A program made the translations under genes and the position numbers. From an uncultured virus (IMG/VR IMGVR_UViG_3300009130_000019) (lineage: Duplodnaviria; Heunggongvirae; Uroviricota; Caudoviricetes), in IMG/VR virus record IMGVR_UViG_3300009130_000019: a stretch of 64,000 nt of DNA. One strand, given 5' to 3'. This document shows, piece by piece, positions 1 through 56,400 of the stretch. Each line of letters begins with the position of its first letter. Within the stretch, counting starts at the first letter, position 1. The notes beneath the pieces were generated by a model that had not been told where the DNA came from, made no database searches, and saw only the letters and a program-made list of their open reading frames with translations.

Positions 1-99
1 AAGAAAGCTTTAGTGACATAAGCTGGTGCTATAAAGCATGTCATACCATGTGCATCCTCACGGTTCTTGAAAGGAAGCTCTTTTATTTTAATGTCCATA
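1..99 (-). CDS. Hypothetical protein, 5' part only (MDIKIKELPFKNREDAHGMTCFIAPAYVTKAF...), runs off the window
   Basis: ATG at 99 with an A-rich leader (AAACAATTTAATT) just after the stop of the 111..749 gene; open to base 1. Confidence 0.65.
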
Positions 100-110
100 A
101 TTAAATTGTT

Positions 111-749
111 TTAGTCCTCTACTGAGGTGTTTATAAATGTTATTTTGTGATAAGGATAATCCTGTGATGTTCTTGCTGTTCCTGGCACAAGCTTAAAGTA
201 CACAATGGTTTCACAGAGGTTAATTTTCTTTACAGAATTACATAGATCATACCCTTTCATAGACCAGCCAATAGAAACCATATGTTTCTCTAATTGATTT
301 AATGAAGTGTAAGGTTTATCTACAATGCCTTGGTCTGCTGCATTTTCAAACCTTTCATATTCTTGAATGGCATTTTTTATCCACTGTATTATTCTATATC
401 CTTTTATATAATAGTCTTTCCCTTCACTTTCACCGTTTACGGTTTCATAAAAGACTTGTGACCCAGGTACATGTCTATAAGTTTTACCTGACTTAAATAA
501 TTCTAACATTCTTGGATGTTGTTCATCTTTTGATATGCAAGGATATCCATAGGTGTTAAGCCTGCCTCTAAAATATTTATCAGGATATACATTAAATCTT
601 TTAGGGAATAAATCTGGATACTCCTTATATATATTAAGAAGCTTTACACAATCCCCAATTGTGTGGCATCTATAAAGCTTAAGTGCTTTTTGCACATAAT
701 CAGCCAAATATGTGCACTCTTCTACTTTAATTTTTAAGTAATCTTTCAT
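111..749 (-). CDS. Hypothetical early protein, 212 aa
   Basis: Long ORF in the minus-strand gene run; leader hairpin ACCTC-ACTA-GAGGT then ATAAACTAATTTAAG-ATG. Confidence 0.8.
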   Translation of the reverse strand: MKDYLKIKVEECTYLADYVQKALKLYRCHTIGDCVKLLNIYKEYPDLFPKRFNVYPDKYFRGRLNTYGYPCISKDEQHPRMLELFKSGKTYRHVPGSQVFYETVNGESEGKDYYIKGYRIIQWIKNAIQEYERFENAADQGIVDKPYTSLNQLEKHMVSIGWSMKGYDLCNSVKKINLCETIVYFKLVPGTARTSQDYPYHKITFINTSVED

Positions 750-798
750 CTTAAATTAGTTTATACCTCTAGTGAGGTGGTTGATAATATAATTTTAT

Positions 799-1245
799 TT
801 AATTTTCTTCACAAACACTTCTGATTTTGTTTGCTAAAACAATTACTTCAGGTCTACAAATAAAATTATTTGGATATTCAGGCAAACCCTTTAATGAATC
901 TGTATCTCCAAACTTTTGTACAACTGGATCTGTTGTATCAAATTTTTCTCCAATAAGAATGCGAAGTCCTGTTGTTTCGCTTATCTTATATTCATCTTTT
1001 TTGAAAGATTCTGGAGTTGCTGTCCATATAACCCTTGGAATGCACGGAGGTATTTTACATAATAAATCTTTATCCTTGTATAGTCTGTATCCATATACTA
1101 TACAATCAATGTCTTTGAAATTACAATATTCAATATCAAACATGCTTAGTTCATGCGTAACAATATTGTTTTTATGCATTCCATATGCAAAATTTGGATC
1201 TCTGTTTATATCTGTGTCAATAAATAAAACTATCAAATTTTTCAT
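799..1245 (-). CDS. Hypothetical early protein, 148 aa
   Basis: ORF with A-rich leader AAAACAATTTAACT-ATG, co-oriented with neighbours. Confidence 0.8.
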   Translation of the reverse strand: MKNLIVLFIDTDINRDPNFAYGMHKNNIVTHELSMFDIEYCNFKDIDCIVYGYRLYKDKDLLCKIPPCIPRVIWTATPESFKKDEYKISETTGLRILIGEKFDTTDPVVQKFGDTDSLKGLPEYPNNFICRPEVIVLANKIRSVCEEN

Positions 1246-1272
1246 AGTTAAATTGTTTTAAATGTTTAATAA

Positions 1273-1638
1273 TTAGTTACTAAATTCTGCAATAACTCTT
1301 TCCACAAATTTATCCTCCTCATTAAGGTCCGATCTATGGGTGTAAAAAGAACCAGAATGACAACATGGGCAGTCCTCCTCCCAAAACATTACTTCAAAAC
1401 CCGGACAGCTATGTTGTTTACTTCCAGTGTCTTTATACACAGATAATCCATCTGTGTTTCCTATTCTACAAAACTTGCCATAGGTAACTATCCCACCTTT
1501 TATTTTCCCATAAATAATTCTACCAGTTTCACTCCCCCATTTTTCATGACTGTATTCTTCATGGTAATTTTCTACCTCATTGATGATAAGAACAATATTA
1601 TGGTCACGCAATTTTTTAACATTTTTTTTACTAAGCAT
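1273..1638 (-). CDS. Hypothetical early protein, 121 aa, with a Cys/His cluster (HSC...CPCCH)
   Basis: ORF; leader hairpin GTCAGGG-CTAGTAA-CCCTGGC followed by ACTAAACTA. Confidence 0.8.
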   Translation of the reverse strand: MLSKKNVKKLRDHNIVLIINEVENYHEEYSHEKWGSETGRIIYGKIKGGIVTYGKFCRIGNTDGLSVYKDTGSKQHSCPGFEVMFWEEDCPCCHSGSFYTHRSDLNEEDKFVERVIAEFSN

Positions 1639-1690
1639 AATATAAATAGTTTAGTGCCAGGGTTACTAGCCCTGACGTTTAATAATAAGT

Positions 1691-1831
1691 TTACTTATGG
1701 TTACCCGCACATAGAAGGGAAAGCCCTGCACTGATAAGCAACCACACAATGAAGCATGAAGGAACACCTAGCATATAAAATGCAAAGGTTAAACCTCCTA
1801 CTATTGTTAGGAATTCTATAAGCTCTTCCAT
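1691..1831 (-). CDS. Small membrane protein, 46 aa (MEELIEFLTIVGGLTFAFYMLGVPSCFIVWLLISAGLSLLCAGNHK)
   Basis: C-terminal part of track ORF 1691..2074; internal ATG at 1831 has an AAAAACTATATT leader; two hydrophobic segments; the longer start overlaps the 1947..2222 gene. Confidence 0.6.
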   Translation of the reverse strand: MEELIEFLTIVGGLTFAFYMLGVPSCFIVWLLISAGLSLLCAGNHK

Positions 1832-1946
1832 AATATAGTTTTTAAATACACTAATCTTACTTGCTATATTAGTGCAGAACCTGAAGGGATTATCCTCGGC
1901 AAGCAGGTATATTGGTTTTGCGCCTGATCTAACAGACTGTTTGAAT

Positions 1947-2222
1947 TTAAAGTGTTTCATCCGCCCCTTCTGCTCCACTAGTGAGGTAGTCCTCATAGTC
2001 AGCTTGAAGGGTTGGAAATTGGATGACTCTATAGTAGGATTTCTCCTCAAAAACTTGAGAAATCTTACCGTCAATTAGACAGTAGCCCTCATTAGTGAGG
2101 ACTGCTGACTGAAATGCCGCCTCTTCATCAGCGGTCATTTCAGATTTAGGTAGATCACCTCTCCAGGAATAGCCTTCATCCTTGGAAATGTTTCTGGCGA
2201 ATAAATAATGTTCTACTTTCAT
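1947..2222 (-). CDS. Hypothetical acidic protein, 91 aa
   Basis: ATGA stop/start overlap with the upstream gene ending at 2219. Confidence 0.75.
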   Translation of the reverse strand: MKVEHYLFARNISKDEGYSWRGDLPKSEMTADEEAAFQSAVLTNEGYCLIDGKISQVFEEKSYYRVIQFPTLQADYEDYLTSGAEGADETL

Positions 2223-2380
2223 GATTTCTTAAATTTTTTGGTTATTAAAATTATTGCTATTGTTTGTGCTGCTTCACGCACATCATCTGCCCACTCACAA
2301 TTAGGCGTGTGATCTAACTGATCAGCTATATCATCAAGCCTTTCAATTAGATCTCTTAATTTTGATTCTTCTAGTGTCAT
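2219..2380 (-). CDS. Hypothetical helical protein, 53 aa (MTLEESKLRDLIERLDDIADQL...)
   Basis: ATG at 2380 has an A-rich leader; the track start at 2419 lies inside a hairpin. Confidence 0.65.
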   Translation of the reverse strand: MTLEESKLRDLIERLDDIADQLDHTPNCEWADDVREAAQTIAIILITKKFKKS

Positions 2381-2401
2381 GTGTTTTATATTTTTATAAG
2401 T

Positions 2402-2434
2402 AAAAAAATACCTGTACATCCTATGTGCACAGGT
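2402..2434 (-). terminator. Intrinsic terminator-like hairpin ACCTGTGCA-CATAGGA-TGTACAGGT followed by A and T7
   Basis: 9-bp stem with a G-U pair on the minus strand and a U-tract. Confidence 0.6.
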
Positions 2435-2490
2435 TTAAAAGGTGGTCAAATGTAAGGCAAGACCAGACCTCCAAGACTTAATACCAACCT

Positions 2491-2530
2491 TCAGTAGCCA
2501 CAGGATTTCAACCCCGCAATATGTGACTAC
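2491..2530 (-). ncRNA. Degenerate tRNA-like minihelix (element C)
   Basis: GTAGTCACA/TGTGGCTAC 9-bp stem enclosing GGGG-TTGAAAT-CC (T-loop-like); acceptor arm related to elements A and B. Confidence 0.35.
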
Positions 2531-2600
2531 TTAAATTGGTGTGACTCAGCGTCAGGTAGCAAGAGCATCCCTAAGAATGCTAATGCAACTAAGAAGACAA

Positions 2601-2738
2601 TCACTTCTTCTTAGTTTTGACTTTAACCTGCTTAACAGGTTGTAAAGTTTTTCCATCTCTGCTTACAATATGAGATGGTTTCTTAACGCTGATAAAATCC
2701 TGTACAAAACACAAGTAGGCTTTATTAAGACCTTTCAT
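2601..2738 (-). CDS. Small basic protein, 45 aa (MKGLNKAYLCFVQDFISVKKPSH...KTKKK)
   Basis: Internal ATG of track ORF 2601..2843; short, so support is modest. Confidence 0.4.
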   Translation of the reverse strand: MKGLNKAYLCFVQDFISVKKPSHIVSRDGKTLQPVKQVKVKTKKK

Positions 2739-2987
2739 AACAAATAAATTAATGTGTTTCCTAAAAAGAATAAACCACCATGTTGCTGGAAACACAGTAA
2801 CACAGCATGGTGGTATTATCTTAAGTGAATACATTCCCCTCAATGGCGTCTACTTTAGTAGCAGACCACCAAGAAGGGAGATAGCCGAGATGGTTTTCAA
2901 GATGCATCTCGACATCTTTCTCTTTTAAAGTCCAGATGAAGCACTGTTGTACTTCGTCCTCCATCCAGACTATTCTATAGAGCATCA

Positions 2988-4205
2988 TTAAAATCTGAAT
3001 TTTATAGACTCCATAAACTCAGGAGTCATTTTAAATTCAATGTCAGCAATTTCAGTAGTAAACACCTCTTCCCATGTATTAAAATCATATAAAAGATTCC
3101 AAAAATGGAAATATTTGTTATCAAGTAACCAAAGCTTAGTCCCTACTAAGCAGGAGCTAGTCATTTTCTTGAAGGATCTGAAAGAAATAATTCCTCTTTC
3201 AAGGATATTGTTTCTTTCCTCTCTGTTGAGGATTTTTTCTTGAAGTTTTTTCAACCCCTTTTTTAGAAAATAATTTTCTACATGGGTTTCAAACCCTTCA
3301 TCTGTCACCCAGATGAAGTATTTTTTGTTTACTTTGGCAGCAGAAAACTTACCGAAAGTTTTAATCCTACCAGAATGAACAACCCCCTCTGATTTGCAGT
3401 GGAGGAATTTACTTCCAATACAAACTTTTCCAATAGAAGTATTGTGGGATTCAAAATCCCAATAAATTCCGCTTAAGGATTTATAATATTCCCTCCAACG
3501 TAAATTTTTCAAGCACCAGACTGAGAGCCTGTTGGAAACAATATTTAGTTTTCCTTCGGAATGGCAATTTAATTCTTGCCTTTCCTTAAACTTCTCATGA
3601 TCAGCAACCCTTTTTATGAAATTCTTATTTCCATGATCAACAAGATGATGGAGAATCTCGACATTGTATTTAGCCCACTCCATGTGAGCTTTGTTTTTAA
3701 AATCAAAATTAGCTGCAATCTTTCTATGCAGCCATTTATTTTCTCCAATATATTTATAACGCTTTACCTTTTTTGCCAGCGTAAATAAACTGGCACCAGT
3801 TTCGATGCCGTGCCTGTTTAATTCATGAAGCATCTCTGCTCCACAATGAAGAAGTAGGTAGTCAGAAAAACTACAGTCATCATTGACTGTAATTAAATGA
3901 TTATATCTTGTGGGCACGTAATCCCACCTCTGCCAGAGGGCAGCCTGCTGAAACTCAGCAGCCTTTAATGGAGATAAGCCCTCAAACCCTTCATAAGGGC
4001 TTGGGCCATAGACTCCACAAGAGTCTAGGCTGCCGCCATGTGAAATAAAAACCTGCATATCTTCAGCAGAAATTTTCAACCCTTCTTTAGGGTAGCGTGT
4101 GAGCCACCCTCCTTTATCCGCCAACCCATAATATGGGTGTAGCTCTAGGTTTGAAAATTTTTCTTCAGACACTTGGTTGAGAGCTTTAATTATATTCATT
4201 TTCAT
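2988..4205 (-). CDS. Hypothetical early protein, 405 aa
   Basis: Long ORF, conserved leader hairpin upstream, 12-bp hairpin downstream (2930-2970); no motif recognised. Confidence 0.85.
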   Translation of the reverse strand: MKMNIIKALNQVSEEKFSNLELHPYYGLADKGGWLTRYPKEGLKISAEDMQVFISHGGSLDSCGVYGPSPYEGFEGLSPLKAAEFQQAALWQRWDYVPTRYNHLITVNDDCSFSDYLLLHCGAEMLHELNRHGIETGASLFTLAKKVKRYKYIGENKWLHRKIAANFDFKNKAHMEWAKYNVEILHHLVDHGNKNFIKRVADHEKFKERQELNCHSEGKLNIVSNRLSVWCLKNLRWREYYKSLSGIYWDFESHNTSIGKVCIGSKFLHCKSEGVVHSGRIKTFGKFSAAKVNKKYFIWVTDEGFETHVENYFLKKGLKKLQEKILNREERNNILERGIISFRSFKKMTSSCLVGTKLWLLDNKYFHFWNLLYDFNTWEEVFTTEIADIEFKMTPEFMESIKFRF

Positions 4206-4250
4206 AGTTGATAATGGTTTGTAGTGCTACACCCTATGAAGTGATGCAAC
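4201..4250 (-). promoter_or_regulatory. Conserved leader hairpin, copy 1 (ACTTCATAGGGT ... TACAAACCA ... AACTATGAAAA)
   Basis: Three sequence blocks shared with 5090-5137 at nearly the same spacing to the ATG; flanking stems differ in sequence. Confidence 0.6.
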
Positions 4251-4315
4251 ACGGATTTATAAAATATTTAAATCCATCTTATATTGGAATGGTTAAGTAG
4301 AGGACAAAGTCCTGA

Positions 4316-4382
4316 TAGTAGTCACAACAGGGATCGAACCTGCTTGTATAAATATACTCTCCAATGTAACCTATTTGTGAAG
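4316..4382 (-). ncRNA. tRNA-like RNA with a truncated anticodon arm (element B)
   Basis: TCACA/TGTGA acceptor pairing, D-loop-like TAGGTTACATTGGAGA, T-arm GCAGG-TTCGATC-CCTGT, 3' end TGTGACT-A-CTA. Confidence 0.55.
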
Positions 4383-4764
4383 TAACGGGACAGCGGCACC
4401 CCTACAGCTGTCCCTTGATTTGAATCAGATTACTCCATGATAATTATTTTTAGTGAATAATAGCACCTCAACAAATAGGTTTATTCTTTGTTACTGCCAT
4501 AAGCAAAGAAAACTATTGGTGCAAGATTTAGAGAGAAGGATTTAACTGAAAACTTGGCAGAAAGTCTTTTATAAAATAAAATATAGGACCATCACCAGAC
4601 CATTGCATCACCGCTATAACTATTTGTTTAACCATTTATACCCGCTAAGGTTCCTTCTCTTGGTTAAGTTTATAGCAGCTACTCAATAGACCTGCTTGAA
4701 AATTTATGGGCAAAAGCCCAGGTTAACAAAATGTGCGTTGTCAGTATGCGCACCCCACTATTTA

Positions 4765-5094
4765 TTAAACTGCCCCACAATCCCAACACGCCCCCCAAGA
4801 AGGGTCGTGGTTTTTAATAATTTCCCCTTTATAGCTGATCACCTCGGCATCAGCTACAATAGTACCACCACAAAAACTACAAGAACCAAGTTCTTTAGTT
4901 TTTTTTTCTACATTCAAGTCTTCTTTGGTTAATTTTTCTATGTAATAACCATCTTGAAGATGGCCTTGCCCATCACCGTAGGCAAGATAAATTTCATGAA
5001 TATCATCTTCATTCAGGAAAAGCACCTCTCTTTTCCCGTTGATGTTTGTTACGTAAAATGATTTCTGTTTTGTTCTAAAAATTGAATTTTTCAT
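4765..5094 (-). CDS. Hypothetical protein with C-terminal Zn-ribbon (CSFC...CWDC), 109 aa
   Basis: Two CxxC pairs; start moved to ATG 5094, which matches the conserved leader spacing. Confidence 0.75.
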   Translation of the reverse strand: MKNSIFRTKQKSFYVTNINGKREVLFLNEDDIHEIYLAYGDGQGHLQDGYYIEKLTKEDLNVEKKTKELGSCSFCGGTIVADAEVISYKGEIIKNHDPSWGACWDCGAV

Positions 5095-5137
5095 AGTTAA
5101 TTTGGTTTGTACTACCATACCCTATGAAGTATGGCAG
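5090..5137 (-). promoter_or_regulatory. Conserved leader hairpin, copy 2 (CTGCCATAC-TTCATAGG-GTATGGTAG)
   Basis: 9-bp stem; same 12-mer and downstream blocks as 4201-4250. Confidence 0.6.
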
Positions 5138-5151
5138 GATGTTAATAAAAA

Positions 5152-5207
5152 ATAGAACCCACAGCCTGACTTGAACAGGCAGCACACCTATATTAGTGGT
5201 GTGGGTT
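5152..5207 (-). ncRNA. tRNA-like minihelix RNA lacking D and anticodon arms (element A)
   Basis: Perfect ACCCACA/TGTGGGT acceptor stem stacked on perfect T-arm GCCTG-TTCAAGT-CAGGC, 19-nt connector, 3' end T-CTA. Confidence 0.6.
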
Positions 5208-5210
5208 ATT

Positions 5211-5286
5211 CTTAGGCTACCAAGCTTGTGGACACCTACTTCTTATAAGCAGGTTATATCCATCCCACAAGCAGATGTAGCCTAAG
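5211..5286 (-). ncRNA. Long structured hairpin, candidate ncRNA
   Basis: CTTAGGCTAC/GTAGCCTAAG and GCTTGTGG/CCACAAGC stems plus inner ACCT/AGGT pairing; non-coding context; strand inferred from neighbours. Confidence 0.5.
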
Positions 5287-5554
5287 TAATCATAGACTAC
5301 AACTGTATTGTGGTTAGCTTGGTAGCTTGTCAGGCGTGTTGCCTTACTTTGAGTAAAGCTTTTCCACACCTCGCAAATTCCTAATTTCTTCATCCTATAT
5401 ATTTTTAAGGATTAAAGATTCCTATCAACACCAAGCCCTGATAGTATAGGCTTTCCTCCTACAAGCACTTACATCTTGATTCTCGGAGGACTGTAGAACC
5501 ACCCAAGGGTTTTGCTCCCCTGCAAGTCAGCATCTAGCTGAGGTGGTTAAGTTT

Positions 5555-5809
5555 TTAGAATGGTAGTGTGTCATAATACCACCAATTACCTAAAAACTTA
5601 TTTGCTGCAGTCATTTCTGCAGCAGTCATGTTAAATACCACAGTCGGCTGTGGCCAATTCATGTTTGGCTCATGCGCCTGTGTTGCCACAGACACAATAG
5701 AACCAAATTTAGCAACCCACCCCTGAGAGGTAAGCTGCAAGTTTTCACAGTCTACTGATGTGCCACAATTACGTGTGGCATAAGTGGAAATTTTTACTAT
5801 AACTTCCAT
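5555..5809 (-). CDS. Hypothetical protein, 84 aa (MEVIVKISTYATRN...), first gene of the leftward block
   Basis: Internal ATG of track ORF 5555..5848 with AT-rich leader. Confidence 0.6.
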   Translation of the reverse strand: MEVIVKISTYATRNCGTSVDCENLQLTSQGWVAKFGSIVSVATQAHEPNMNWPQPTVVFNMTAAEMTAANKFLGNWWYYDTLPF

Positions 5810-5834
5810 AATACATAAGGTTTTGTATCCCCTT

Positions 5835-6121
5835 ATACACATGTACAAGAGGATAGATTAATAAAATAAATACATACATAGATACTCAGCAGCAGAAGAT
5901 CAGAGTTCTTGTCTCCTTGCTTGCTTCCATGTATGTAAGCATACACATGCACATCAAACTGAATGCTTGACTTGTACACATGTATACCCTTGCAACAAAA
6001 AATTTTTGTGCAAGACATGCAGAGTTGCCCTATGTCAATCATAGGGGGTACACTACACGGAAGCAAAACCCGGGGGCAAAATATTATAGACCCCCACACA
6101 TTTCAACACACACATTTCAAC
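5835..6121. repeat. Repeat-rich divergent intergenic region (TACACATG x3; CACACATTTCAAC x2)
   Basis: TACACATG at 5836, 5942, 5975; 13-mer at 6095-6107 and 6109-6121; coincides with the strand and skew switch. Confidence 0.6.
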
Positions 6122-6162
6122 GGGTACATATTTTGTTATGTTCACATAAATAGTTTAGAGTG

Positions 6163-6194
6163 TTTGGGATATTGTTAATAAAGTGATATATTTG
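6163..6194 (+). promoter_or_regulatory. Bacteroidota sigma-A type promoter
   Basis: TTTG (6163-6166), 20-nt spacer, TATATTTG (6187-6194), matching the -33/-7 consensus TTTG-N19-21-TAnnTTTG; ATG at 6208. Confidence 0.75.
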
Positions 6195-6207
6195 GCAAAA
6201 AGGGATT

Positions 6208-6495
6208 ATGGCAAAAAGAAAGAGTATACGTGTTAGTGCAGAGGAGGCAGAGGAGATTATGCGTGAGGCATATGACAACAGTTACAGGTTATTGATGGGT
6301 GAGGTTAGTTACAGGGGTTTAGAGCGGGAGTGCAGGGAGAAGGACATAGATATGTATTTAACATATTATAGTGATATTGGGCCAACATTAGAGGATGTTG
6401 AGGATATGTTATTGTGGTATGAGGAAAAGGAGTGGTATGAGAGGTGTGGTGTTATAAAGAGGTATATAGACAAGAAGTTTAAGAAAGGCAAGTAA
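6208..6495 (+). CDS. Hypothetical protein with a UvrB/UvrC-like helical motif (EEKEWYERCGVIKR)
   Basis: ORF directly after promoter; motif resemblance by eye. Confidence 0.65.
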   Translation: MAKRKSIRVSAEEAEEIMREAYDNSYRLLMGEVSYRGLERECREKDIDMYLTYYSDIGPTLEDVEDMLLWYEEKEWYERCGVIKRYIDKKFKKGK

Positions 6496-6498
6496 ACT

Positions 6499-6530
6499 TT
6501 TGGAGTTTAGATTTAAATTAATTATATTTG
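6499..6530 (+). promoter_or_regulatory. Bacteroidota sigma-A type promoter
   Basis: TTTG (6499-6502), 20-nt spacer, TATATTTG (6523-6530). Confidence 0.75.
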
Positions 6531-6558
6531 GATTATTAAATAACAAAAGCAATATAAG

Positions 6559-6780
6559 ATGGAAAGTACAGAAACAATGGATGATGTTAAGGAGATGAGC
6601 AAGGAGGAGTTACGTGAGAGGCGTAAAAAGGTTACAGAGTATTATGAGGATCACATTCCTCACTTGAAGGTTCAGTTGGAGTATGAGAGGTTATTAACAG
6701 AGATAGAGGAGAACAGGGCAAAGCGTGCACAGGCACAGAAATTTTTGGCACAGATCATGGCACCTGAAGAGAAGGCATAA
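6559..6780 (+). CDS. Small coiled-coil protein, 73 aa
   Basis: ORF bracketed by its own promoter and terminator. Confidence 0.8.
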   Translation: MESTETMDDVKEMSKEELRERRKKVTEYYEDHIPHLKVQLEYERLLTEIEENRAKRAQAQKFLAQIMAPEEKA

Positions 6781-6810
6781 TTACCGTGGGGGTAATTATT
6801 TTGCATAGTT

Positions 6811-6842
6811 AGGGGTGGGGAGTATTTCTTCACCCTTTTTTT
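6811..6842 (+). terminator. Intrinsic terminator
   Basis: AGGGGTGGGGA/TCTTCACCCTT stem with G-U pairs followed by a T-run. Confidence 0.7.
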
Positions 6843-6853
6843 AAAATATAATC

Positions 6854-7765
6854 ATGGAGACATTAAAGGTAGGGTCAAAGGGTATTAATGTAGTTAAGTT
6901 ACAGAGTATTTTAAAGTTAAAGCAGGATGGGTTATTTGGGAGGAAGACTGAGGCAGCTGTAAAGAATTTCCAGATGTACAGGGATTTGAAGGCTGATGGT
7001 ATAGTTGGGATGGAGACATGGGCAAGTTTGTTATCACATGTTGGTCCTATAGAGGCAATAGATCAGGATTCAGATTTACAATATTTTGAGACAAATTATG
7101 ATCAGCGTATAGAGAAGTATTATTTACCTAAGGGGGAGTATGTGGAGAAGAGGTATGATAACAGGTATTGTTTTTTGCATCATACAGCGGGGAGGGAGAA
7201 TCCATTTAGGGTTATAGACAGCTGGGGAAGAGATAGTAGGGGGAGAGTAGGTACTGAATTTGTGCTGGGTGGACAGAGTCATACTACAGGTAGCAGGGAT
7301 TATGATGGTGTTATGGTTCAGGCATTTCCTGAGGGCAATCATGCCTGGCATTTAGGGAAGACGGGTTCAGGGATAATGAACAAGGCTAGTGTTGGGATAG
7401 AGATATGTTCTATGGGTTATTTGGATAATGACTTAAAGACTTATGTTGGTAGTAAGTGTTTAACTTCACAAGCATGCAAGTTGGTAGAGCCTTTTAAGGA
7501 CAGGGTATATTGGCATAAGTATTCTGACCGTCAGTTAGAGGAGATAGAAAAGTGGATAAAGTATATAGGTGAGAGGGACAAGATAGATATGAGGCTTGGT
7601 TTAAAGCAATGGATTAAGAAGTATGGTCCTGTTAAGGCTTTTGGTTTTCAGGAGGATGCTTATTATGGTAAGGTGGAGGGTTTGCTGACACACACAAATG
7701 TAAGAAAAGATAAAAGTGATTGCTATCCAGATCCGGGATTGGTGGATATAATCATGAGTTTATAA
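6854..7765 (+). CDS. Endolysin: N-terminal peptidoglycan-binding domain plus N-acetylmuramoyl-L-alanine amidase (Amidase_2 type)
   Basis: LKVGSKG..V..LQ...DGLFG..TE.AV..FQ...L.ADGIVG..TW (PG_binding_1 pattern); LHHTAG, AWHLG, SVGIEIC, LTH...KSDC zinc-amidase motifs. Confidence 0.9.
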   Translation: METLKVGSKGINVVKLQSILKLKQDGLFGRKTEAAVKNFQMYRDLKADGIVGMETWASLLSHVGPIEAIDQDSDLQYFETNYDQRIEKYYLPKGEYVEKRYDNRYCFLHHTAGRENPFRVIDSWGRDSRGRVGTEFVLGGQSHTTGSRDYDGVMVQAFPEGNHAWHLGKTGSGIMNKASVGIEICSMGYLDNDLKTYVGSKCLTSQACKLVEPFKDRVYWHKYSDRQLEEIEKWIKYIGERDKIDMRLGLKQWIKKYGPVKAFGFQEDAYYGKVEGLLTHTNVRKDKSDCYPDPGLVDIIMSL

Positions 7766-7967
7766 GGTAGGCTAGGCAATTATTTTTAAACAAAGTGTTT
7801 GGGACTTGATAATTCTGAAAGCCTGCCTACCTTTAAGATATAGGGAAGGGGAGAAACTATTTTTACTTAATTTTATTATTTAATTATGGGTTAGTATATT
7901 TATTTTATGGCTAAATTAAATTGCCCCCTTCCTTATTTAAGAAATAATTCAAAAACTTTATTAAGCT

Positions 7968-8327
7968 ATGACGAGAGTAAGTAAGGTAGACAAGAAGGTA
8001 AGATCAACAAGAGATAAAGTTATAAAGTATCAGATCTTGACATATTGTTTTTTTAAAAACATTAAGGTCAGTACTACTGAACTTGAGTTGTTAACAGAGC
8101 TATCCAAGAATAATGGCATAGAGATAAACGAGCTGTGTCAGCAATTATCTGTTAAAAGTGTATATAGAACAAAGCAGTCAGCCAGGAATGCTATAACAAA
8201 AGCAGAGAAAAAGACGTTAATAATAAAGAATGGTGATGCCAGAAAGAAGAGAGTTTATATATCTGAAGATTTAAATATTCAGATAGATGGCATTATATTT
8301 TTAGATATAAAGATACTGGGAGAATGA
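7968..8327 (+). CDS. Putative winged-helix DNA-binding protein
   Basis: Basic 119 aa; TELELLTEL...INELCQQL...QSARNAITKAEKKTLIIK wHTH-like pattern. Confidence 0.6.
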   Translation: MTRVSKVDKKVRSTRDKVIKYQILTYCFFKNIKVSTTELELLTELSKNNGIEINELCQQLSVKSVYRTKQSARNAITKAEKKTLIIKNGDARKKRVYISEDLNIQIDGIIFLDIKILGE

Positions 8328-50000: not shown

Positions 50001-50444
50001 ATAAATCCTCTTAATGATGAAACGAATTATATTTTAAATAGTTTAATTAACAAAAAGACTGGCACACATAATAGAGGATTTGCTGATAACTCAAGCGTAA
50101 GTGTTGTTAAAGATGGAAATAGTTATAAATTTAATACAGATTTTTATCAATGGAACAGGACCACAGGAAATTATGATTTATTAACTTCACAACAAATTCA
50201 AAGTCAATTACCTTCTTTTGAAACTAACACTAGAATGTTTAATACTTATAAGCAAGCTAATGATTATTATGAAGAACAGGTAAAATTATTAACAGACTGG
50301 TCTAGCAATCAGTTAAGAAGGAAAGAAGATATAACAAGATATTATAGTGAGTGGTTGTCAAACTTTAATCCACCTTTAGAAAACTCAAAAGAAAACTATA
50401 AAGAGTTTTTAGAAATGTTAAACAAAACAAATTATGGGCGATAA
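47025..50444 (+). CDS. Putative virion cargo/ejection protein, 1139 aa
   Basis: Helical/coiled-coil; directly upstream of and overlapping the RNAP gene by 11 nt. Confidence 0.7.
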   Translation: MATYVPNVAQYLPELKTFTPDYKFLSNVLTAKQTKYDTNYKQLNNAYSRIMYSDLSRQDTQEARDQFVNDLQPTLEKISGLDLSLAQNVRAANAVFEPFYDNDLVMKDMVYTKNYKDNLSYAESLMYSNDQETKDKYWKEGIEYMAIKMEDFKNASQEVAMNMGLEQYVEHPQLYKKARAYLDEKGYKIEYDELSKDRDFIITNTNGEDVTATIMADLKQMFSKDQLINKAYYTQSYVDSRNYAKNQMNEGLVGSVQEGINKYNMGNIEAYKKSQEASVEKYDARINSLNDELNTIQQNLKGKAPVPGSLDDMYIKKIQNQIEGDNKEKEMLMQSITLANEVLSSGDSKMINDRGYSIQMNTNIMQDLRTAATNYSMLTAKKKIEVNQAELHAKNRRHAARMQREKFIFEERMKEKQSQLDAQKELAVYEGKLDIEKERGIKRTTFKYDDDKTLIDKAYDFLGLGETGSTTLLTKTGIEDLSEKVRNDTELEFIENAQEKLVSEELGLYTSLYSITDNDSPVNGMVKIPDGYIVPEEYEENITEYKDNIYMKSEAFKELVKENKNAYEAYSGHLYDMLSNEDTPENPDKKTSNSLKHNSNNNASFEAIINLQEKKKNIEDQRNKYFSTAKEQMRVASELSGNKYLPSPIQEDQNGTDQLLSQEQFNKTIESSDAYAPRYLNSKKFINHVRGGLHLGEAHILKDEIIQNYEKNKKLPDDFILEDKEILVDGKKQYTKRFNPKYFSIRRTTYGNRENQRALSKSMGIMTQAAGGYLMAERYYRMFPVKNEKLYNNISNSYSRQLEELDQIQKGTYLSPKDEKPISGVPYYSFVAQQLDLQDPNALLPTLQIGFKTSDVMNNFQYKDFKESGDVTKIPRSMKNTMFLEKAIQNSLGDYEVYQTKLTSATGRKFDNYKKEDQVDPNMVLNIINNYKTGKLEDDYIIEYTPGNDHEGSSEYRIIAKTDVKANKQHIFGYEYNNFITIKMPNRYDGNEINPLNDETNYILNSLINKKTGTHNRGFADNSSVSVVKDGNSYKFNTDFYQWNRTTGNYDLLTSQQIQSQLPSFETNTRMFNTYKQANDYYEEQVKLLTDWSSNQLRRKEDITRYYSEWLSNFNPPLENSKENYKEFLEMLNKTNYGR

Positions 50445-53400
50445 TTTAAACATGCCAGATAACCTGGAGTTTACACAACAAGACATTGATACAACATTGG
50501 GTCAAGATTTACCAACAACACCAACAGATCTTGATTATGACATTATGTTTAAGGAGTTTTCTGATGCTGCTAACAGTATTTCATATCATTCAGATTATGA
50601 GCCATTAAATTCTAATTATTCTGGGCCAGTTGGTTTTAATTATAATCCATATGAGCAGAATGTTAATCTTTCAAATTCAGAGATTAACATTCTTAAAAAT
50701 ATGAACCAAATAAATGATAAGGTTCTTAAAAATCCTAAGCCTTTACATCCTATTTATACAAATAAGAGAATAACTAATTTTGAAAGATATTATTCTCATG
50801 ATAAATTTGGAGAACTTGGTTGGCATCCATATAGAGATAATGAAAAGATATATAATGAAAACTCAACAGTTTGGGATGACTATGGTAGAATGCTTGGTCA
50901 AATGCCAAAATTGCTTTATACGGGTTTTGTATCTGCATATAGATCTATAGGAGATTTATTTGATGATGACCCTTACTTATTTGGGGGTAAAGATTTAGAT
51001 TCAGCCAGAGAGTTTTCTGATGCTATGAGAATAGGTAATTCTACTAGGGGTGGTGTAGGAGAATTTATGAATAATTTAGTATTGCAGTTTGGATATACAG
51101 GAGGTATTATTTTAAATATTGCAGCAGAAGAATTTATATTATCGGGACTAACAAGAGGGGGGTCTATTTTTACAGCCCCTGCTAGAGTTTTACAAAAAAC
51201 AGCAACTTCAGCAGCAAGAGCAACCAGAATAAAAGAGGGTATAGAATTATTAGGTTCAACAGTAAGCAAATTAAAAAACATAGAAAATTCTAAAGGTTTT
51301 TATCAGGCACTAAGAACTGGTGACAGTAAACTAATGAAGTTTTTACTTCCTGAAACAATGGGTGCCAGGAGACTTATCACAAGTACAAATGGCATGAAAA
51401 ATCTTTCGGACTTTGGGAAAACCATGAAGACTTACGGCGGGTTTTACAGAGATCTTAGAAGTCTTAATTATGCTATATCTGAAGCCAAGATGGAAGGGGG
51501 TATGGTGTATGATGAAAGAATGGTTAATGGCTTAGCATCAAGAAGTGAAGATTCTACATTAGAATATTTACCTGATGAAGATTTAGAATTAATTAGAAAC
51601 GGTGCTAATGAGTCAGCCTATTATACAACTTTGTTAAATGCTCCTTTTATATATTTTACTAATCAATTTATATTAGGAAATGCATTAGGATCTTCTAACA
51701 GGTCTTTAGCTAAATTAATAGCTGATAATTCTGATTCAGTAGCTAAAAAACTTATTAGGCAATCTCCTCTTAAAAAAACATTTTTAGGAAAACCAATTCT
51801 TGATGATGCTGGGAAAGTTTTAGTGAAGCAATCTGGAGCAAAGGGTGTTAAAGGTTTTACAGCAAAAGGTTTAGCTATAGGAACAGCAGGTGTAGCATTA
51901 AGATATTTTAGTCAAAATTTTGGTGAAGGTGTACAAGAGGTATATCAAGAAGCTGTATCTCATGGGGTAGGACATTATTATGATGCAATAATAAAAGATC
52001 CTACATTAAATACAAGAAATTTATTTGCCGCATCATTAAGTGAGGGGATGTCTAGTCAATTTTCTGAACAAGGATTTAAAACTTTCCTTTCAGGGTTTAT
52101 GATGGGCGGTATAGCAGGGCCTGTTCAAAGCTTTTTGTTTAATCATATACCTAATGCAAAAAACTATTTATTTAACAGAGAAGAATTCTTAGCAAAGAAG
52201 AAAGAATTTAAACAATATATTGATAAGCTTGAGAACCAATATAACAGTAGTTATACAAAATTTAAAGAAGATCCTGATAAGTTTTTAGATTTAAAGGTTG
52301 TTAATACAATAATGCAAAGGCAGGTTAGCCAAGCTATGAATGAAACAGTTGTTGATAATGACAACTATGAAAAGATAAACCAAAGGGATATATCTAAATT
52401 TCAAAACTTATATACTTTAGCTAACAATGGTTCTTTAGATATGTTTAGAGATCAGTTGAATGACTATTTAAAACTATCTGATGAAGACATTGCAACAGCA
52501 TTCCCTTCTCTTAAATCTGAAGTTAAAACAGGGAAAATAAAAGAAAGGTTAAATAGCTATATAGAACAAATAGATAAAGTTGAAGAATTATATAATAAAA
52601 ATAAAAACAAAAATATAAATCCTTTTGACCCATCACAGTATGACCCTCTTAAAGAGCCTGGTTTATTCCAGGAAGAAAGCTTTAGGTATAAAACATTTGA
52701 GCACATTAGGTACCTTGCAATGTTCACAGAAAATTCAATGATAAGAGCAGGGGAAAGAATGATTAGTTTATATAAATCACTAGAGGTTGACCCCGTGTTT
52801 AAAAACATGGCTGCTAATGATCTTGTATTGCTTACTCAGGACCGGCTTATTTCTGATGAAATAAATAATCTTAAAGCTGAAATAAAACTTGCTGAAGATA
52901 CTGATACTAAATATGAAGGTCTTAATCTTAAAAAAAGAAAGCTTAAGAATTTACAAAAAATACAAGAGTTTTTAAAAGGTGGAAGAAATAAATTTGGTTC
53001 TATTAAACTAGAAAAGAAAGAACAAATAAGAAAGCTTTTTAAGAAGTATGTACAAGACTTAGCTACAGATAAGCAATCTATCTTAAATACTGATATTCTG
53101 GATGAGCAAATAGATAAAATATTTGATTATAATAAATTATCAGAGGATGAGAAGATGTATAATAATTCTATTATAGCATTATCTGACCCCACTAAGTTTG
53201 ATGAATTATTTACTGCTACTTATAAAAAAAGAAAAGAAATATATGATAATGGAGTTAAGATATTCAGAGATAGTATATACAAACATATCAATAATGAAAT
53301 ATACAGAAAGATTTTAAATGACTTAGCAGACATGGGTTATTATTTAGACCCTCAAGAAGTAATAGCATTCCATGAAAGTGGATATAAAGATTTTTCTTTA

Positions 53401-56400
53401 ATTACTAAAATATATGATGAGAAAGGTATAGTTGAAGATGTAAACATTGAAAAGACTTTAAAGAAATTGCTTGATGATGCAATGCTTAAAGAAGAGCAAG
53501 AGGAAGAGACAGAAGATGATAACAAAGCAATAATTGATGAGGAGATAAAACTTCTAATGGAAGAGTTTGAATTAGATAGTTACACAATAGCTACTCCAGA
53601 GCAGGATCAACAAATAACAAATTTAGAAAAATCTATATTAGGGCAGATACAATTTAACAACCCAAATGAAAATGCATCATCAATAAATAAAAAACATTCA
53701 GATAATCTTTCTATGGTTATTGACTCCTTGTTAGTAGTTGCTGCAAACAACTCATCTATTGAGGCGTATAACTCTTTGCAAGCTTTTGAATTTTATATAA
53801 ATGGTCAACTTGAAGAAAACCAAAAGCAATTTCTTGATAGAATATTTGGCAAGTATGATAAGACTGAAGAAATAAAAAAAGGCTTTAACTCAGAACTAAA
53901 TGAAATTAATGAAGAGGAAGAGATTGAAGAAGTTGGAGATGAGGATTTAGATGAAGAAGAACAAAACAAAGAAGAAGAAGAAAAAAAGAAACTTTCATTA
54001 TTAAACGAAAGGGTGTTTCCTGAGCTTAATAATATTGAGTTAAAGATTAGGGTAAGTAAAAAAACAAAGAAATTTATTATTACAGAAAATAATAAAAGGC
54101 TATCAAAAAACCTCCAGTTATATTTTGGTTTAGATAGTATTGCATTTGACACTTTAGAAGATGCACGCAATGTTTTACAAGGCTTAGAAAAAAGTGAAGA
54201 TGTTGACAATAAGGTTTTTTATTTAAAAAATAATGAATCTCTACAAAATGATCAAACCGTATATGATAATTCAGGTAGAGCTTATATAGTCAAAACAACA
54301 CTACCGTATTTTATTTTAAATAAAGAAATAGTTGCAGTAGATGCTTTAAATAGGAGAAGCCAAATATTAACAGAAGATGGGTTTATTAAAAACTTTTCTA
54401 AGGAGAAAAGAAAAAAGGACTACCCAAATAAATTATCTACAGTAGATAACAATGTTGTTTTAATACCAAGATCTTACAATGTTGATCCAAACACAAAGAA
54501 AAGAATACCTGCGGTTATACCTCAAGAAACATATGCTGCTGTAATGTCTTATTTGGGTAAATCTTATGAAAAAGATGAAGCTAATTTATTTGAAATAAAT
54601 ATATCGTCTTTAGAGCCTACAGATAAACTTAGGCCAGTACAACCTAATATATCAGAGGATGCTCACCCACACATGTTTTATAAGGGGGTTCCATATAGTA
54701 TTTCACTGTCTTTAACTCCAGAGGGTTTATCTTTAATTAACACTGAATTACAAAACAAAAAAATTGAAGTACTTTCTAGTCCTGTCATAGCCTTTTTAAA
54801 TACTAATAATATAGTATTTAAAGATACAAATGGGATTGAGATAAACCCCCTTGAAATGACATTTGATCAAGCGCAAATGTTTTTTCAAAAATTAGACAAT
54901 AATAAATATGAAAGATTAATTGATAATTTTGCTTCAAATAAAGCTTTAGAATATGGCATTAAAGATTATTTTGAAAACAATAATGTAACATCTGTTAAAT
55001 TTACCGAAGAGGAATTTATAAAACAATTTGACATAAGTTTTTTGACGGCTATACAAGAGTTTGACTATAACTCAAACAACCCCATAGAGTTAAACCAGGT
55101 GATGTTTTCTAAAGTTGAAGGTCAATATTTTATAACAAGAAATGTTTTGGATAAAGATTTTAATGTTGTAATAGACATGGAAGTTCCTGGGAATCCAGAA
55201 TTAGATCAATCTTTATTGACTAGAATTGAAAAAGCTAGTGAAGAATATAAGTTTCAGCAAGGGTATATTGCTTGGTCATTTGCACCAAATGGAGATCTTA
55301 TATATATACCACTTAAATCTAAAGTTTTAGAAGATGAAAAGATAGAATCAATATTTAAATCTATTCAAGAAACATCTAATAAAGTAAAAGAAAACCAAAG
55401 TGTAGATCTTGATAAGTTTAATACTGAAAAAGATTATTTCATATCTATGCCTAAAGGTTTTTATTTAAATATTACAGTTGTTGAAGATACTGGGAATGTT
55501 TTATTTACACTTAAGAAAAAAGAATTTAATGGACAAGAAACTAAAACAGTATTTCAAGACACCTTGACATTTACTAATGAACAAATCACACAGTTGTCAA
55601 TTGATAATTTGCAGCAAATATTTGATTATTTTAATGTTCAAATAAAAGATAAATTAGATGATACAATTGCTGAAAATTTCACTCTTACAAAAGAGCAGTT
55701 TAGAGTAAATTTTTCTAAAGATTCTACTAATGAAGAAATTGCAGGAGATGTAAAAACTGATTTACAAGCAAGGGTGTATAAGCGTAAAAATTATAAAATA
55801 CAAGCTTCTACTGAGGCTATAGAGCAAATTAAAAACCCTCCTGTTAACACAAACAACAATAATAATAGCAATGCTAATAATCAAAACTCTAATAAATCAG
55901 ACTTAGATAAAAAGATAGAAGAGATTAATTATATAAGAGAAGGTGCTAAATTGTTAATTGATTCAACTAAACTAGCAAATGTTGTTAGGCAATCAAATAT
56001 TCAAAATACCAAGGAAGGGCTTGAAAATATTGTTAAGTTTTTAAATAATACGTTTTCAGATACATATAAACTTATAGAATTTGATGGAAATCAACTTACC
56101 TTGTCTAGGAATGGTATAGAATTTAAAATACCTTTTTCAGAAAATAAGCTAGGAGGGGGTGCAATTTATGTATTCGACTTTAATATAAATGACATTATAG
56201 ATGCTAAATATAATGCAGAAATAGCAGCATTAACTTTAAATAACAACAATCCAGAATTTAGTAGAGATGATTTAGAGAATCAATTAAGAGAATTAGAAGA
56301 TCAAGAACAAAAAAAGAGAAATGAAATAAACAAGCTTAAAAGAAAGCTTAAAAAACAAACTGATCAAAATAAGATTAATTCTATTACTCAAAAAATAAAT

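What the first reader, a model, noticed from the sequence alone, without database searches (positions are those of the whole stretch)
5152..5207. Minimal tRNA mimic with perfect acceptor and T arms but no D or anticodon arm
The minus strand reads A-ACCCACA-[19 nt]-GCCTG-TTCAAGT-CAGGC-TGTGGGT-T-CTA. That is a 7+5 bp coaxial helix with a canonical TTCRANY loop. Both stems are intact although the rest of the tRNA is absent, which argues against random decay. The top half of tRNA is what RNase P, RNase Z, CCA-adding enzyme and EF-Tu recognise (established). It could be a processing signal or a decoy for tRNA-targeting anti-phage effectors (inference).
Basis: partly seen in the sequence, partly recalled or inferred. 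Interest (0 to 1): 0.7.

Follow-up and report, generated by a model that had tools for sequence, protein, structure and literature searches.

The report
Anticodon-less mini-tRNA elements in marine crAss-like phage
The flagged stretch is a real, conserved RNA-type hairpin shaped like the upper half of a tRNA, one of at least three interchangeable versions that sit between small genes of a group of marine crAss-like phages, most likely as a handle for the host's tRNA-trimming enzymes, though no expression data exist.

Summary
On the minus strand, 5206..5153 reads ACCCACA-19 nt-GCCTG-TTCAAGT-CAGGC-TGTGGGT-T-CTA. This is a 7+5 bp acceptor/T-arm stack with a canonical T loop. ARAGORN and Rfam call nothing there.

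It is not chance and not a recent deletion. A second element with the same architecture but different sequence (E2, 4371..4316) lies 835 nt away on the same strand. Marine metagenome relatives carry E1, E2 or a third, 113-117-nt type (E3) at equivalent spacers, and none carries an intact tRNA. All 132 stem cells in 11 distinct E1/E2 sequences pair. The G.U pairs fit only the gene strand. The linker ranges from 10 to about 80 nt.

E1 heads a conserved intergenic cassette flanked by reassorted genes. Most relatives lack a T-run after the element, so it is not an intrinsic terminator. No cellular tRNA 3' half matches it.

Best reading (about 0.45): a transcribed tRNA top-half mimic cut by RNase P and RNase Z, like plant mitochondrial t-elements. 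This would split the message and release a ~51-nt RNA. Rivals are a tRNA/tmRNA relic, a trans-acting decoy, and a DNA-level recombination junction. No RNA data were available.

The parts
5153..5206 (-). E1: tRNA top-half element. Acceptor 5' strand 5206-5200, 19-nt linker 5199-5181 (possible 4-bp mini-hairpin CACU/GGUG with a variable loop), T stem 5180-5176 / 5168-5164, T loop TTCAAGT 5175-5169, acceptor 3' strand 5163-5157, discriminator T5156, CTA 5155-5153.
   Evidence: Model R1 scores it 59 bits. RNAalifold gives the same structure.
5141..5152 (-). T-rich tract TTTTTTATTAAC after E1. It is present only in the short E1 cassette variants.
   Evidence: The long variants L004, L009 and L022 have TTAACCGCAACAGG... 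here instead. The terminator scan did not list E1.
5103..5134 (-). Conserved hairpin CCATAC-TTCATAGG-GTATGG followed by TAGTACAAACCA. This is the second half of the cassette, 9-11 nt before the ATG at 5094.
   Evidence: A second copy lies at 4241..4215.
5217..5393 (-). Upstream small ORF (58 aa, no family hit). Its stop lies 10 nt before E1.
4765..5094 (-). Downstream ORF. It is listed from ATG 5118, but the likely start is ATG 5094. It has a weak, below-cut-off Pfam match to DUF7837 at its C-terminus.
4316..4371 (-). E2: second element of the same architecture. GGTTACA-21 nt-GCAGG-TTCGATC-CCTGT-TGTGACT-A-CTA.
   Evidence: R1 scores it 73.9 bits. Its minimum-energy fold is the tRNA-like fold.
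4215..4248 (-). Second copy of the TTCATAGG-loop hairpin plus TACAAACCA, upstream of the 405-aa ORF whose ATG is at 4205.
   Evidence: (repeat D1).
2492..2528 (-). E4: weak, degenerate third candidate. AGTCACA-TATTGC-GGGGTTGAAATCC-TGTGGCT-A-CTG. The 7-bp outer stem is kept in L001 (AGTCACG), but the T arm is degenerate.
   Evidence: R1 scores 15.2 bits, E 0.38, at the overlapping placement 2546..2492. The coordinates 2528..2492 are my own re-reading.

Best explanation
E1 is an RNA-level mimic of the tRNA acceptor/T-arm 'top half'. It is transcribed on the minus strand as part of the leftward small-gene region of a marine crAss-like phage. It forms the first half of a conserved intergenic cassette: minihelix, A/T-rich spacer, TTCATAGG-loop hairpin, TACAAACCA, then the ATG. 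Different small genes have been reassorted around this cassette. The inferred mechanism has three steps. Host RNase P cuts 5' of A5206, which would leave the upstream message ending just after its stop codon. RNase Z or an equivalent enzyme cuts after the discriminator T5156, because the gene encodes CTA rather than CCA. The CCA-adding enzyme may then tail the released ~51-nt RNA. The element would therefore punctuate the transcript as plant mitochondrial t-elements do, and it would yield a small stable RNA whose own role, if any, is unknown. The structure, its conservation, its strand and its modular behaviour are shown here. Transcription, cleavage and CCA addition are inferred.
For: (1) The geometry is exact and is rare by chance: 1.7% of 300 shuffles had one such element, while the window has two.
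(2) Family. E2 in the window, and E1, E2 or E3 in relatives, have different sequences but the same 7+5 bp stack, the same TTCRANN loop with G53-C61, and the same discriminator+CTA. Of the 20 loci fetched through the downstream motif alone, 16 have an element within 200 nt upstream and 1 (L010) has one further upstream. Two have none, and 1 (L016) is an unrelated chance match.
(3) Pairing. In 11 distinct E1/E2 sequences, 132 of 132 stem cells pair. With the 3' partner slid by 1-3 columns, only 34-47% pair. 0 of 500 shuffles reach the observed percentage paired or the observed covariation score. RNAalifold predicts exactly this structure on its own.
(4) All four single-side stem changes within a type keep the pair through G.U: E1 U-A to U.G in L002, and E2 A1/G1 with U72, C4/U4 with G69, and G49/A49 with U65. 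On the plus strand these would be C.A mismatches, so the gene strand is the structured strand.
(5) The constraint lies in the top half. The linker is 10 nt in L008, 16-23 nt in the other E1 and E2 variants, and 81-85 nt in E3. In E3, L011 and L018 are identical at 35 of 35 end positions but at only 66 of 88 aligned internal columns. In two more divergent Logan contigs, the differences listed inside E1 fall only at 5190, 5193 and 5194, in the mini-hairpin loop (30 further differences were not shown).
(6) The E3 insertion, compared with the empty sites in L010 and L014, runs exactly from acceptor nt 1 to discriminator+CTA. The unit is the tRNA-like RNA itself.
(7) Position: the gene strand, 10 nt after a stop codon and 62 nt before the next ATG.
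(8) Established knowledge, recalled: acceptor/T-arm minihelices are substrates of bacterial RNase P, RNase Z and the CCA-adding enzyme. Passages read in PMC1920247 show that t-elements direct RNase P and RNase Z cuts at mRNA ends.
Against: No RNA run holds the region, so transcription and RNA ends are untested.
Thermodynamics is weak. The minimum-energy fold of E1 does not contain the T arm, and the z-score of E2 is -0.9.
Within E1 the relatives are at least about 90% identical over the cassette, so most two-sided covariation comes from the E1-versus-E2 contrast. The measures 'pairs with a change on both sides' (5 against a shuffled mean of 4.3; 225 of 500 shuffles reach it) and 'further pair types' (360 of 500) are not significant.
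The whole cassette is conserved, not only E1, so recent spread by recombination could explain the conservation of E1.
E3 sits directly after a hairpin+T-run (L011, L018). E2 in the window lies about 400 nt after a hairpin+T-run. A 3'-end-forming role is therefore not obviously needed at those sites.
E1 has A at +1 and A at -1, not the G(+1)/U(-1) that I recall RNase P favours.
Element-less relatives exist (L014, L023), so the element is dispensable.
Confidence: 0.45

Rival explanations
1. Relic: E1, E2 and E3 are leftovers of phage tRNA or tmRNA genes whose middle was lost. They have no present function and are carried along inside recombining intergenic cassettes.
For: The elements are optional and interchangeable, like phage tRNA genes. 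E4 looks like a decaying copy. The related phage phi14:2 has a tmRNA-like gene in its early non-coding region that ends A-CTG. The whole E1 cassette is conserved, so hitch-hiking is possible.
Against: Three sequence-unrelated types all keep a perfect 12-bp stack and a canonical T loop while their linkers vary freely. All four one-sided stem changes preserve the pair. The E3 ends are 35 of 35 identical against 66 of 88 internally. No parental tRNA was found in 64 kb of the window or in 51 kb of a relative.
Confidence: 0.2
2. Trans-acting small RNA: the processed, CCA-tailed minihelix acts as a decoy or sponge for a factor that reads the acceptor/T-arm. Candidates are acceptor-end-modifying defence toxins and tRNA-modifying or tRNA-binding proteins.
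For: The unit of insertion is exactly the RNA from nt 1 to discriminator+CTA. E2 and E3 lie after hairpin+T-run sites, more like separate small genes than mRNA ends. In phi14:2, early non-coding RNAs are very abundant and stable (passages of bioRxiv 10.1101/2020.03.07.982082).
Against: No target is identified. There is no anticodon arm, so the element cannot decoy anticodon nucleases. No tRNA-related enzyme was found among the window's proteins. There are no expression data.
Confidence: 0.12
3. DNA-level junction: the cassette, including E1, matters mainly as a patch of homology or a structured site at which small genes are swapped. It would resemble the PeSL promoter/terminator cassettes of T4-like phages or integron attC sites.
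For: Two upstream gene types (A, B') and two downstream types (B, D) occur in all four combinations around the same E1 cassette. A+B is in L005 and L009, B'+B in L001, A+D in L004 and B'+D in L022. The window has A+C and L002 has a third pair. The PeSL precedent is PMC4122927 (abstract read) and PMC2839356 (search listing).
Against: This explains the shuffling but not why the patch is shaped like a tRNA top half, nor why three unrelated sequences keep that shape with strand-specific G.U pairs. No recombinase, integrase or homing endonuclease was detected nearby. This reading is compatible with the best explanation rather than exclusive of it.
Confidence: 0.1
4. Intrinsic terminator: a long hairpin followed by a U-run ends transcription of the upstream ORF.
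For: In the window and the short variants, a T-rich tract follows (TCTATTTTTTATT). The minimum-energy fold extends the stem with A/U pairs.
Against: The T-run starts 4 nt after the stem, and the terminator scan did not list the site. The long E1 variants L004, L009 and L022 have TTCTAYTTAACCGC with no U-run. E2 and E3 are followed by ACTATCAGGAC. A plain terminator does not need a TTCRANN loop or a 7+5 bp geometry.
Confidence: 0.05

Closest known systems
Plant mitochondrial t-elements (PMC1920247, passages read), and the mammalian MALAT1 mascRNA type of tRNA-like processing module (recalled)
   Same: A non-decoding tRNA-like structure built around an acceptor stem and a canonical T arm. It lies on the coding strand beside mRNA ends and carries no encoded CCA. 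The proposed cuts are by RNase P at the 5' side and RNase Z at the 3' side.
   Different: This element is in a phage, not an organelle or nucleus. It is much more reduced: no D or anticodon arm, and a linker as short as 10 nt. It occurs as interchangeable cassettes. Cleavage is unproven here.
Acceptor-stem/T-stem-loop model substrates of bacterial RNase P and 'top-half' minihelix substrates of the CCA-adding enzyme (recalled, not read here)
   Same: The same 12-bp coaxial stack with a T loop.
   Different: Those are laboratory constructs. This is a natural, conserved element with an extra 10-80-nt insert at the junction.
PeSL promoter-early stem-loop cassettes of T4-like phages (PMC4122927, abstract read; PMC2839356, listing)
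   Same: A short conserved intergenic regulatory cassette between variable small genes, with gene reassortment across it.
   Different: PeSLs are a terminator hairpin plus an early promoter. Here the structured part is a tRNA top-half mimic, and promoter or terminator activity is not shown.
tmRNA tRNA-like domain, including the tmRNA-like gene found here in Cellulophaga phage phi14:2
   Same: An acceptor and a T arm joined without an anticodon arm. No encoded CCA (phi14:2 ends A-CTG; the E elements end N-CTA). Located in an early non-coding region of a crAss-like phage.
   Different: E1 has C3-G70 rather than G3.U70. It has no tag reading frame and no pseudoknots. The Rfam tmRNA model gives no hit in the window.

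Membership tests
Canonical tRNA | Cloverleaf with an anticodon arm, detectable by tRNA finders | tested here: not met
   ARAGORN finds 0 genes in the window and 0 in 14 related loci. Rfam tRNA gives no hit at E<=10 over 3900-6900. Only 19 nt lie between the acceptor and the T stem.
Canonical tRNA | 7-bp acceptor stem stacked directly on a 5-bp T stem, with a TTCRANN loop closed by G53-C61 | tested here: met
tmRNA | G3.U70 in the acceptor, a tag reading frame and pseudoknots | tested here: not met
   E1 has C3-G70. The 19-nt linker cannot hold a tag. ARAGORN and Rfam find no tmRNA in the window.
t-element / tRNA-like processing signal | Acceptor-like stem plus a conserved T arm on the transcribed strand next to gene ends | tested here: met
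   Strand-specific G.U pairs appear.
t-element / tRNA-like processing signal | Transcript ends coincide with the ends of the element, and RNase P and RNase Z cleave it | not testable with these tools
   No RNA run is listed for the region.
Intrinsic (rho-independent) terminator | G+C-rich hairpin followed at once by a U-run, conserved among relatives | tested here: not met
   The site is not listed by the scan. The U-run is absent after E1 in L004, L009 and L022 and after E2 and E3.
PeSL-like mobile regulatory cassette | Conserved intergenic block flanked by unrelated, reassorted genes | tested here: met
   Window 5209-5076 is 91% identical to L001 although the flanks differ. All four flank combinations occur.
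PeSL-like mobile regulatory cassette | Promoter and terminator activity | not testable with these tools
   Consensus scans give no clear sigma-70 site in the cassette on the minus strand.
Phage attachment site carrying a copy of a host tRNA 3' half | Identity to a cellular tRNA 3' half, with an integrase nearby | tested here: not met
   Exact-pattern scans of one genome per 185,579 species gave 0 hits for the E1 3' half and 0 for the E3 3' half. Only exact matches would be seen. No integrase family was found among the neighbouring ORFs. The 5' acceptor strand is also present, which an att copy would lack.
Y RNA / YrlA tRNA-like RNAs | Match to the Rfam models | tested here: not met
   Rfam (the whole library, in which I recall Y RNA and YrlA models) gives no hit of any family at gathering score and none of these names at E<=10 over 3900-6900.

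The most novel reading that the evidence does not exclude
Marine crAss-like phages carry a family of interchangeable, anticodon-less 'mini-tRNA' genes (E1, E2, E3). In this reading they are matured by RNase P, RNase Z and CCA addition. They would serve either as the punctuation system that forms the ends of early transcripts made by the virion RNA polymerase, or as trans-acting decoys for host factors or defence toxins that read the acceptor/T-arm end of tRNAs.
Probability: 0.15. Interest if true: 0.8.

Novelty: new variant of a known kind. Interest (0 to 1): 0.55.

Why it matters
If the elements are cut by the host's tRNA enzymes, this would be a phage counterpart of organellar tRNA and t-element punctuation. 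It would show how a crAss-like phage shapes the messages of its small, fast-evolving early-type genes. It would also add a natural, minimal RNase P/RNase Z substrate family with a freely variable insert. The cassette around E1 is in addition a clear junction for gene reassortment, which bears on how these uncultured marine phages swap accessory genes. The full-text search for 'tRNA-like' together with 'crAss-like' returned one paper, which concerns low-scoring tRNA pseudogenes only. The search covers only the held library.

Tried and rejected
- Whole genome: none is held for this window.
- Named phage records: no DNA match to 4200-6900 (megablast) or 4700-5900 (blastn).
- RNA evidence: no RNA holder was listed for 3000-7000. 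The 14 runs are all DNA contigs.
- Laying four DNA runs gave variant information only.
- IMG/VR scans: the E2 3' half gave 0 hits and the constant spacer CAGGAC..GTCCTCTACTTAA gave 0 hits.
- Relatives of the 405-aa downstream protein: none in IMG/VR, and nothing usable in the protein atlas.
- Pfam and PHROGs gave no function for the small leftward ORFs.
- A full-length tRNA reading of E1 using the upstream strand GTCCACA (46-nt spacing) was rejected. That strand lies in the upstream ORF and is not conserved where the ORF differs, and no anticodon arm can be drawn.
- A far-upstream 5' partner for E2, as in a tmRNA, was considered. AGTTATA near 4620 and AGTTACA in L006 and L021 are candidates, but they are not conserved (absent in L017), so I kept the adjacent strand.
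- Model R1 does not score E3 well (9.3 bits in L018) because of its long insert. E3 was recognised by eye and by folding.
- R1 found only one copy in the 51-kb relative G001. Four other records could not be searched.

Full report
**What the window is.** The window is part of a crAss-like phage genome of about 30-38% G+C. Crassvirus major capsid, tail ring 1 and tail ring 2 domains, a terminase, a portal and several giant ORFs (2281 aa and more than 4522 aa) lie on the plus strand from about 6.8 kb onward. Bases 1-6100 carry small ORFs without family matches on the minus strand. GC skew switches sign near 6 kb. The DNA runs that hold the window are labelled seawater or marine metagenomes. The nearest named capsid relative is Leptolyngbya phage Lbo-JY46, at 27.6% identity.

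**The observation.** The parts are ACCCACA (5206-5200), a 19-nt linker, GCCTG-TTCAAGT-CAGGC (5180-5164), TGTGGGT (5163-5157), T5156 and CTA. In this phage a T-rich tract follows. ARAGORN and Rfam call nothing in the window. The element begins 10 nt after the stop of a 58-aa ORF and ends about 60 nt before the ATG at 5094 of the next ORF. In 300 Markov shuffles, a strict T arm with a fully paired 7-nt partner 5-80 nt upstream appeared in 1.7% of windows.

**A second and a third copy in the window.** The same scan found a second element, E2, at 4371..4316 on the same strand. It reads GGTTACA-21 nt-GCAGG-TTCGATC-CCTGT-TGTGACT-A-CTA. Both elements are followed by the same motif, a hairpin with loop TTCATAGG followed by TACAAACCA and an ATG. 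A covariance model built from E1 and E2 variants scores E2 at 73.9 bits and E1 at 59 bits. The next best hit in the window scores 15.2 bits at 2546..2492. Reading, I place this degenerate copy, E4, at 2528..2492. Its outer stem is kept in a relative but its T arm has decayed.

**Relatives.**
- An IMG/VR contig (L001) shares a block with window 5209-5076 at 91% identity, while the genes on both sides differ.
- A metagenome scan for the downstream motif alone, which is independent of the tRNA-like part, returned 20 loci.
- Of these 20 loci, 8 have E1, 6 have E2 and 2 have a third type, E3. E3 reads GAGTCAG-81 to 85 nt of hairpins-GTTGG-TTCGAAT-CCAAC-CTGACTC-A-CTA.
- L010 has an E2 further upstream. 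L014 and L023 have no element, only an ordinary hairpin+T-run. L016 is an unrelated chance match.
- ARAGORN finds no tRNA in 14 of these loci.
- The Rfam tRNA model touches E3 only weakly (21.6 and 18.4 bits against a threshold of 29).
- The Rfam tRNA model finds nothing at E<=1 in the 51-kb relative.

**Evidence for a selected RNA structure.**
- On 11 distinct E1/E2 sequences, all 132 stem cells form standard pairs. Five pairs change on both sides between E1 and E2.
- Sliding the 3' partner by 1-3 columns drops pairing to 34-47%. None of 500 shuffles reaches the observed pairing or covariation score.
- Two measures are not significant: pairs with two-sided change (225 of 500 shuffles reach the observed value) and further pair types (360 of 500). 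The variation falls into just two clades.
- RNAalifold independently returns the 7+5 bp structure.
- Within types, the four one-sided stem changes all give G.U or A-U pairs. That fits only the minus strand.
- The linker is free to vary. It is 10 nt in L008 and 16-23 nt in the other E1 and E2 variants, with changes confined to a mini-hairpin loop. It is 81-85 nt in E3.
- In E3, the two variants are identical at all 35 end positions but at only 66 of 88 aligned internal columns.
- In two more distant Logan contigs, the listed differences within E1 fall only in the mini-hairpin loop. That table was truncated.

**Limits of the evidence.** E1 variants are close relatives and the whole cassette is conserved. 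The fold energies are unimpressive, and the minimum-energy fold of E1 alone lacks the T arm.

**What the element is not.**
- It is not an intrinsic terminator. The scan does not list it. Three E1 variants, and all E2 and E3 copies, lack a U-run after the stem.
- It is not a copy of a cellular tRNA 3' half or an attachment site. Exact scans of the species-representative genomes gave no match for the 3' halves of E1 or E3. The 5' strand is present, and no integrase was found.
- It is not a tmRNA or a Y-like RNA.

**Modular behaviour.** E3 is inserted, relative to the empty sites, exactly from acceptor nt 1 to discriminator+CTA. E2 and E3 replace each other at one site. Around E1, two upstream gene types and two downstream gene types occur in all four combinations. 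The cassette is therefore a junction of gene reassortment, as described for PeSL cassettes of T4-like phages (PMC4122927, abstract read).

**Interpretation.** The best-supported reading is a transcribed tRNA top-half mimic recognised by tRNA end-processing enzymes. The closest known analogues are plant mitochondrial t-elements (PMC1920247, passages read). Transcription and cleavage are inferred, because no RNA run was listed. The rivals are set out in the Rival explanations section: a functionless relic, a trans-acting decoy, a purely DNA-level junction, and a terminator.

**Related leads.**
- In phi14:2, ARAGORN and the Rfam tmRNA model (46 bits against a threshold of 47; E 6.8e-16) find an unannotated tmRNA-like gene at 4031-4502. 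It lies within the long non-coding region. A preprint reports that phi14:2 intergenic regions are very highly and stably transcribed from early infection and are of unknown function.
- phi14:2 also has a T-arm element at about 1772-1850 that ends G-CTA.
- Lbo-JY46 has a candidate minihelix at about 4959-5014. Its A/U-only acceptor is not predicted to fold.
- Earlier unverified notes of this scan describe similar minihelices in other phages. I did not test them.

Noticed in passing
L025 (NC_021806, Cellulophaga phage phi14:2) 4031-4502 +: An unannotated tmRNA-like gene. ARAGORN calls a tmRNA with tag GSSVQKLAMVA*. The Rfam tmRNA model scores 46 bits against a gathering score of 47, E 6.8e-16. 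The acceptor has G3.U70 and the 3' end is A-CTG. It lies in the long non-coding stretch between g004 and g006, where a preprint reports very abundant early non-coding RNA of unknown function.
   Followed up: partly
L025 1772-1850 +: phi14:2 has a second tRNA-like T arm (GAAGG-TTCGAAT-CCTTC) with a weak, G.U-rich acceptor. It ends G-CTA and is followed by TACAAACC. Both features are shared with the window's cassettes.
   Followed up: partly
L026 (PP438436.1, Leptolyngbya phage Lbo-JY46) about 4959-5014 +: A candidate minihelix, AAACTAT-23 nt-CTTGG-TTCGATT-CCAAG-ATAGTTT-T-CTT, lies between two small genes. The annotated CDS start at 4975 lies inside it, and an in-frame ATG follows at 5029. The all-A/U acceptor stem is not predicted to fold.
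   Followed up: partly
window 5134..5109, 4248..4222, 2434..2410 and about 6047..6027, minus strand: Hairpins whose loops carry CAUAGG recur downstream of E1, E2 and E4. A hairpin CCCTATG-ATTGA-CATAGGG sits in the leader near 6040. The complement CCCTATGA also occurs twice in the phi14:2 early non-coding region. This could be a protein-binding or processing motif.
   Followed up: partly
window 4205-4765, minus strand: About 560 nt have no ORF longer than 39 aa on either strand apart from one overlapping 78-aa TTG frame. The stretch holds a hairpin+T-run right after the upstream ORF, several conserved hairpins and E2. Most of it is conserved in L008 but absent from L014, where the terminator abuts the constant spacer.
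   Followed up: partly
window 5400-5553, minus strand: A conserved non-coding block upstream of the 58-aa ORF is shared with L002/L003, partly with L001, and with several Logan contigs. It contains the hairpins TCCTCC...GGAGGA and AGCC...GGCT and a promoter-like TTGATA-16-AAAAAT.
   Followed up: no
window 2732-2814, minus strand: Another conserved intergenic hairpin (CCACCATGCTG...CAGCAACATGGTGG) lies before a small ORF. It is 94% identical to L001 2291-2373 although the surroundings differ. It appears to be a second kind of shuffled cassette.
   Followed up: no
window 6001-8000: GC skew is unusually strong here (+0.446) at the switch between the leftward and rightward gene blocks. Divergent promoter-like sites lie near 6078-6192.
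   Followed up: no
window 50434-63999 +: An open reading frame of more than 4522 aa runs off the window with no Pfam match. It follows ORFs of 2281, 1025, 1290 and 1139 aa.
   Followed up: no
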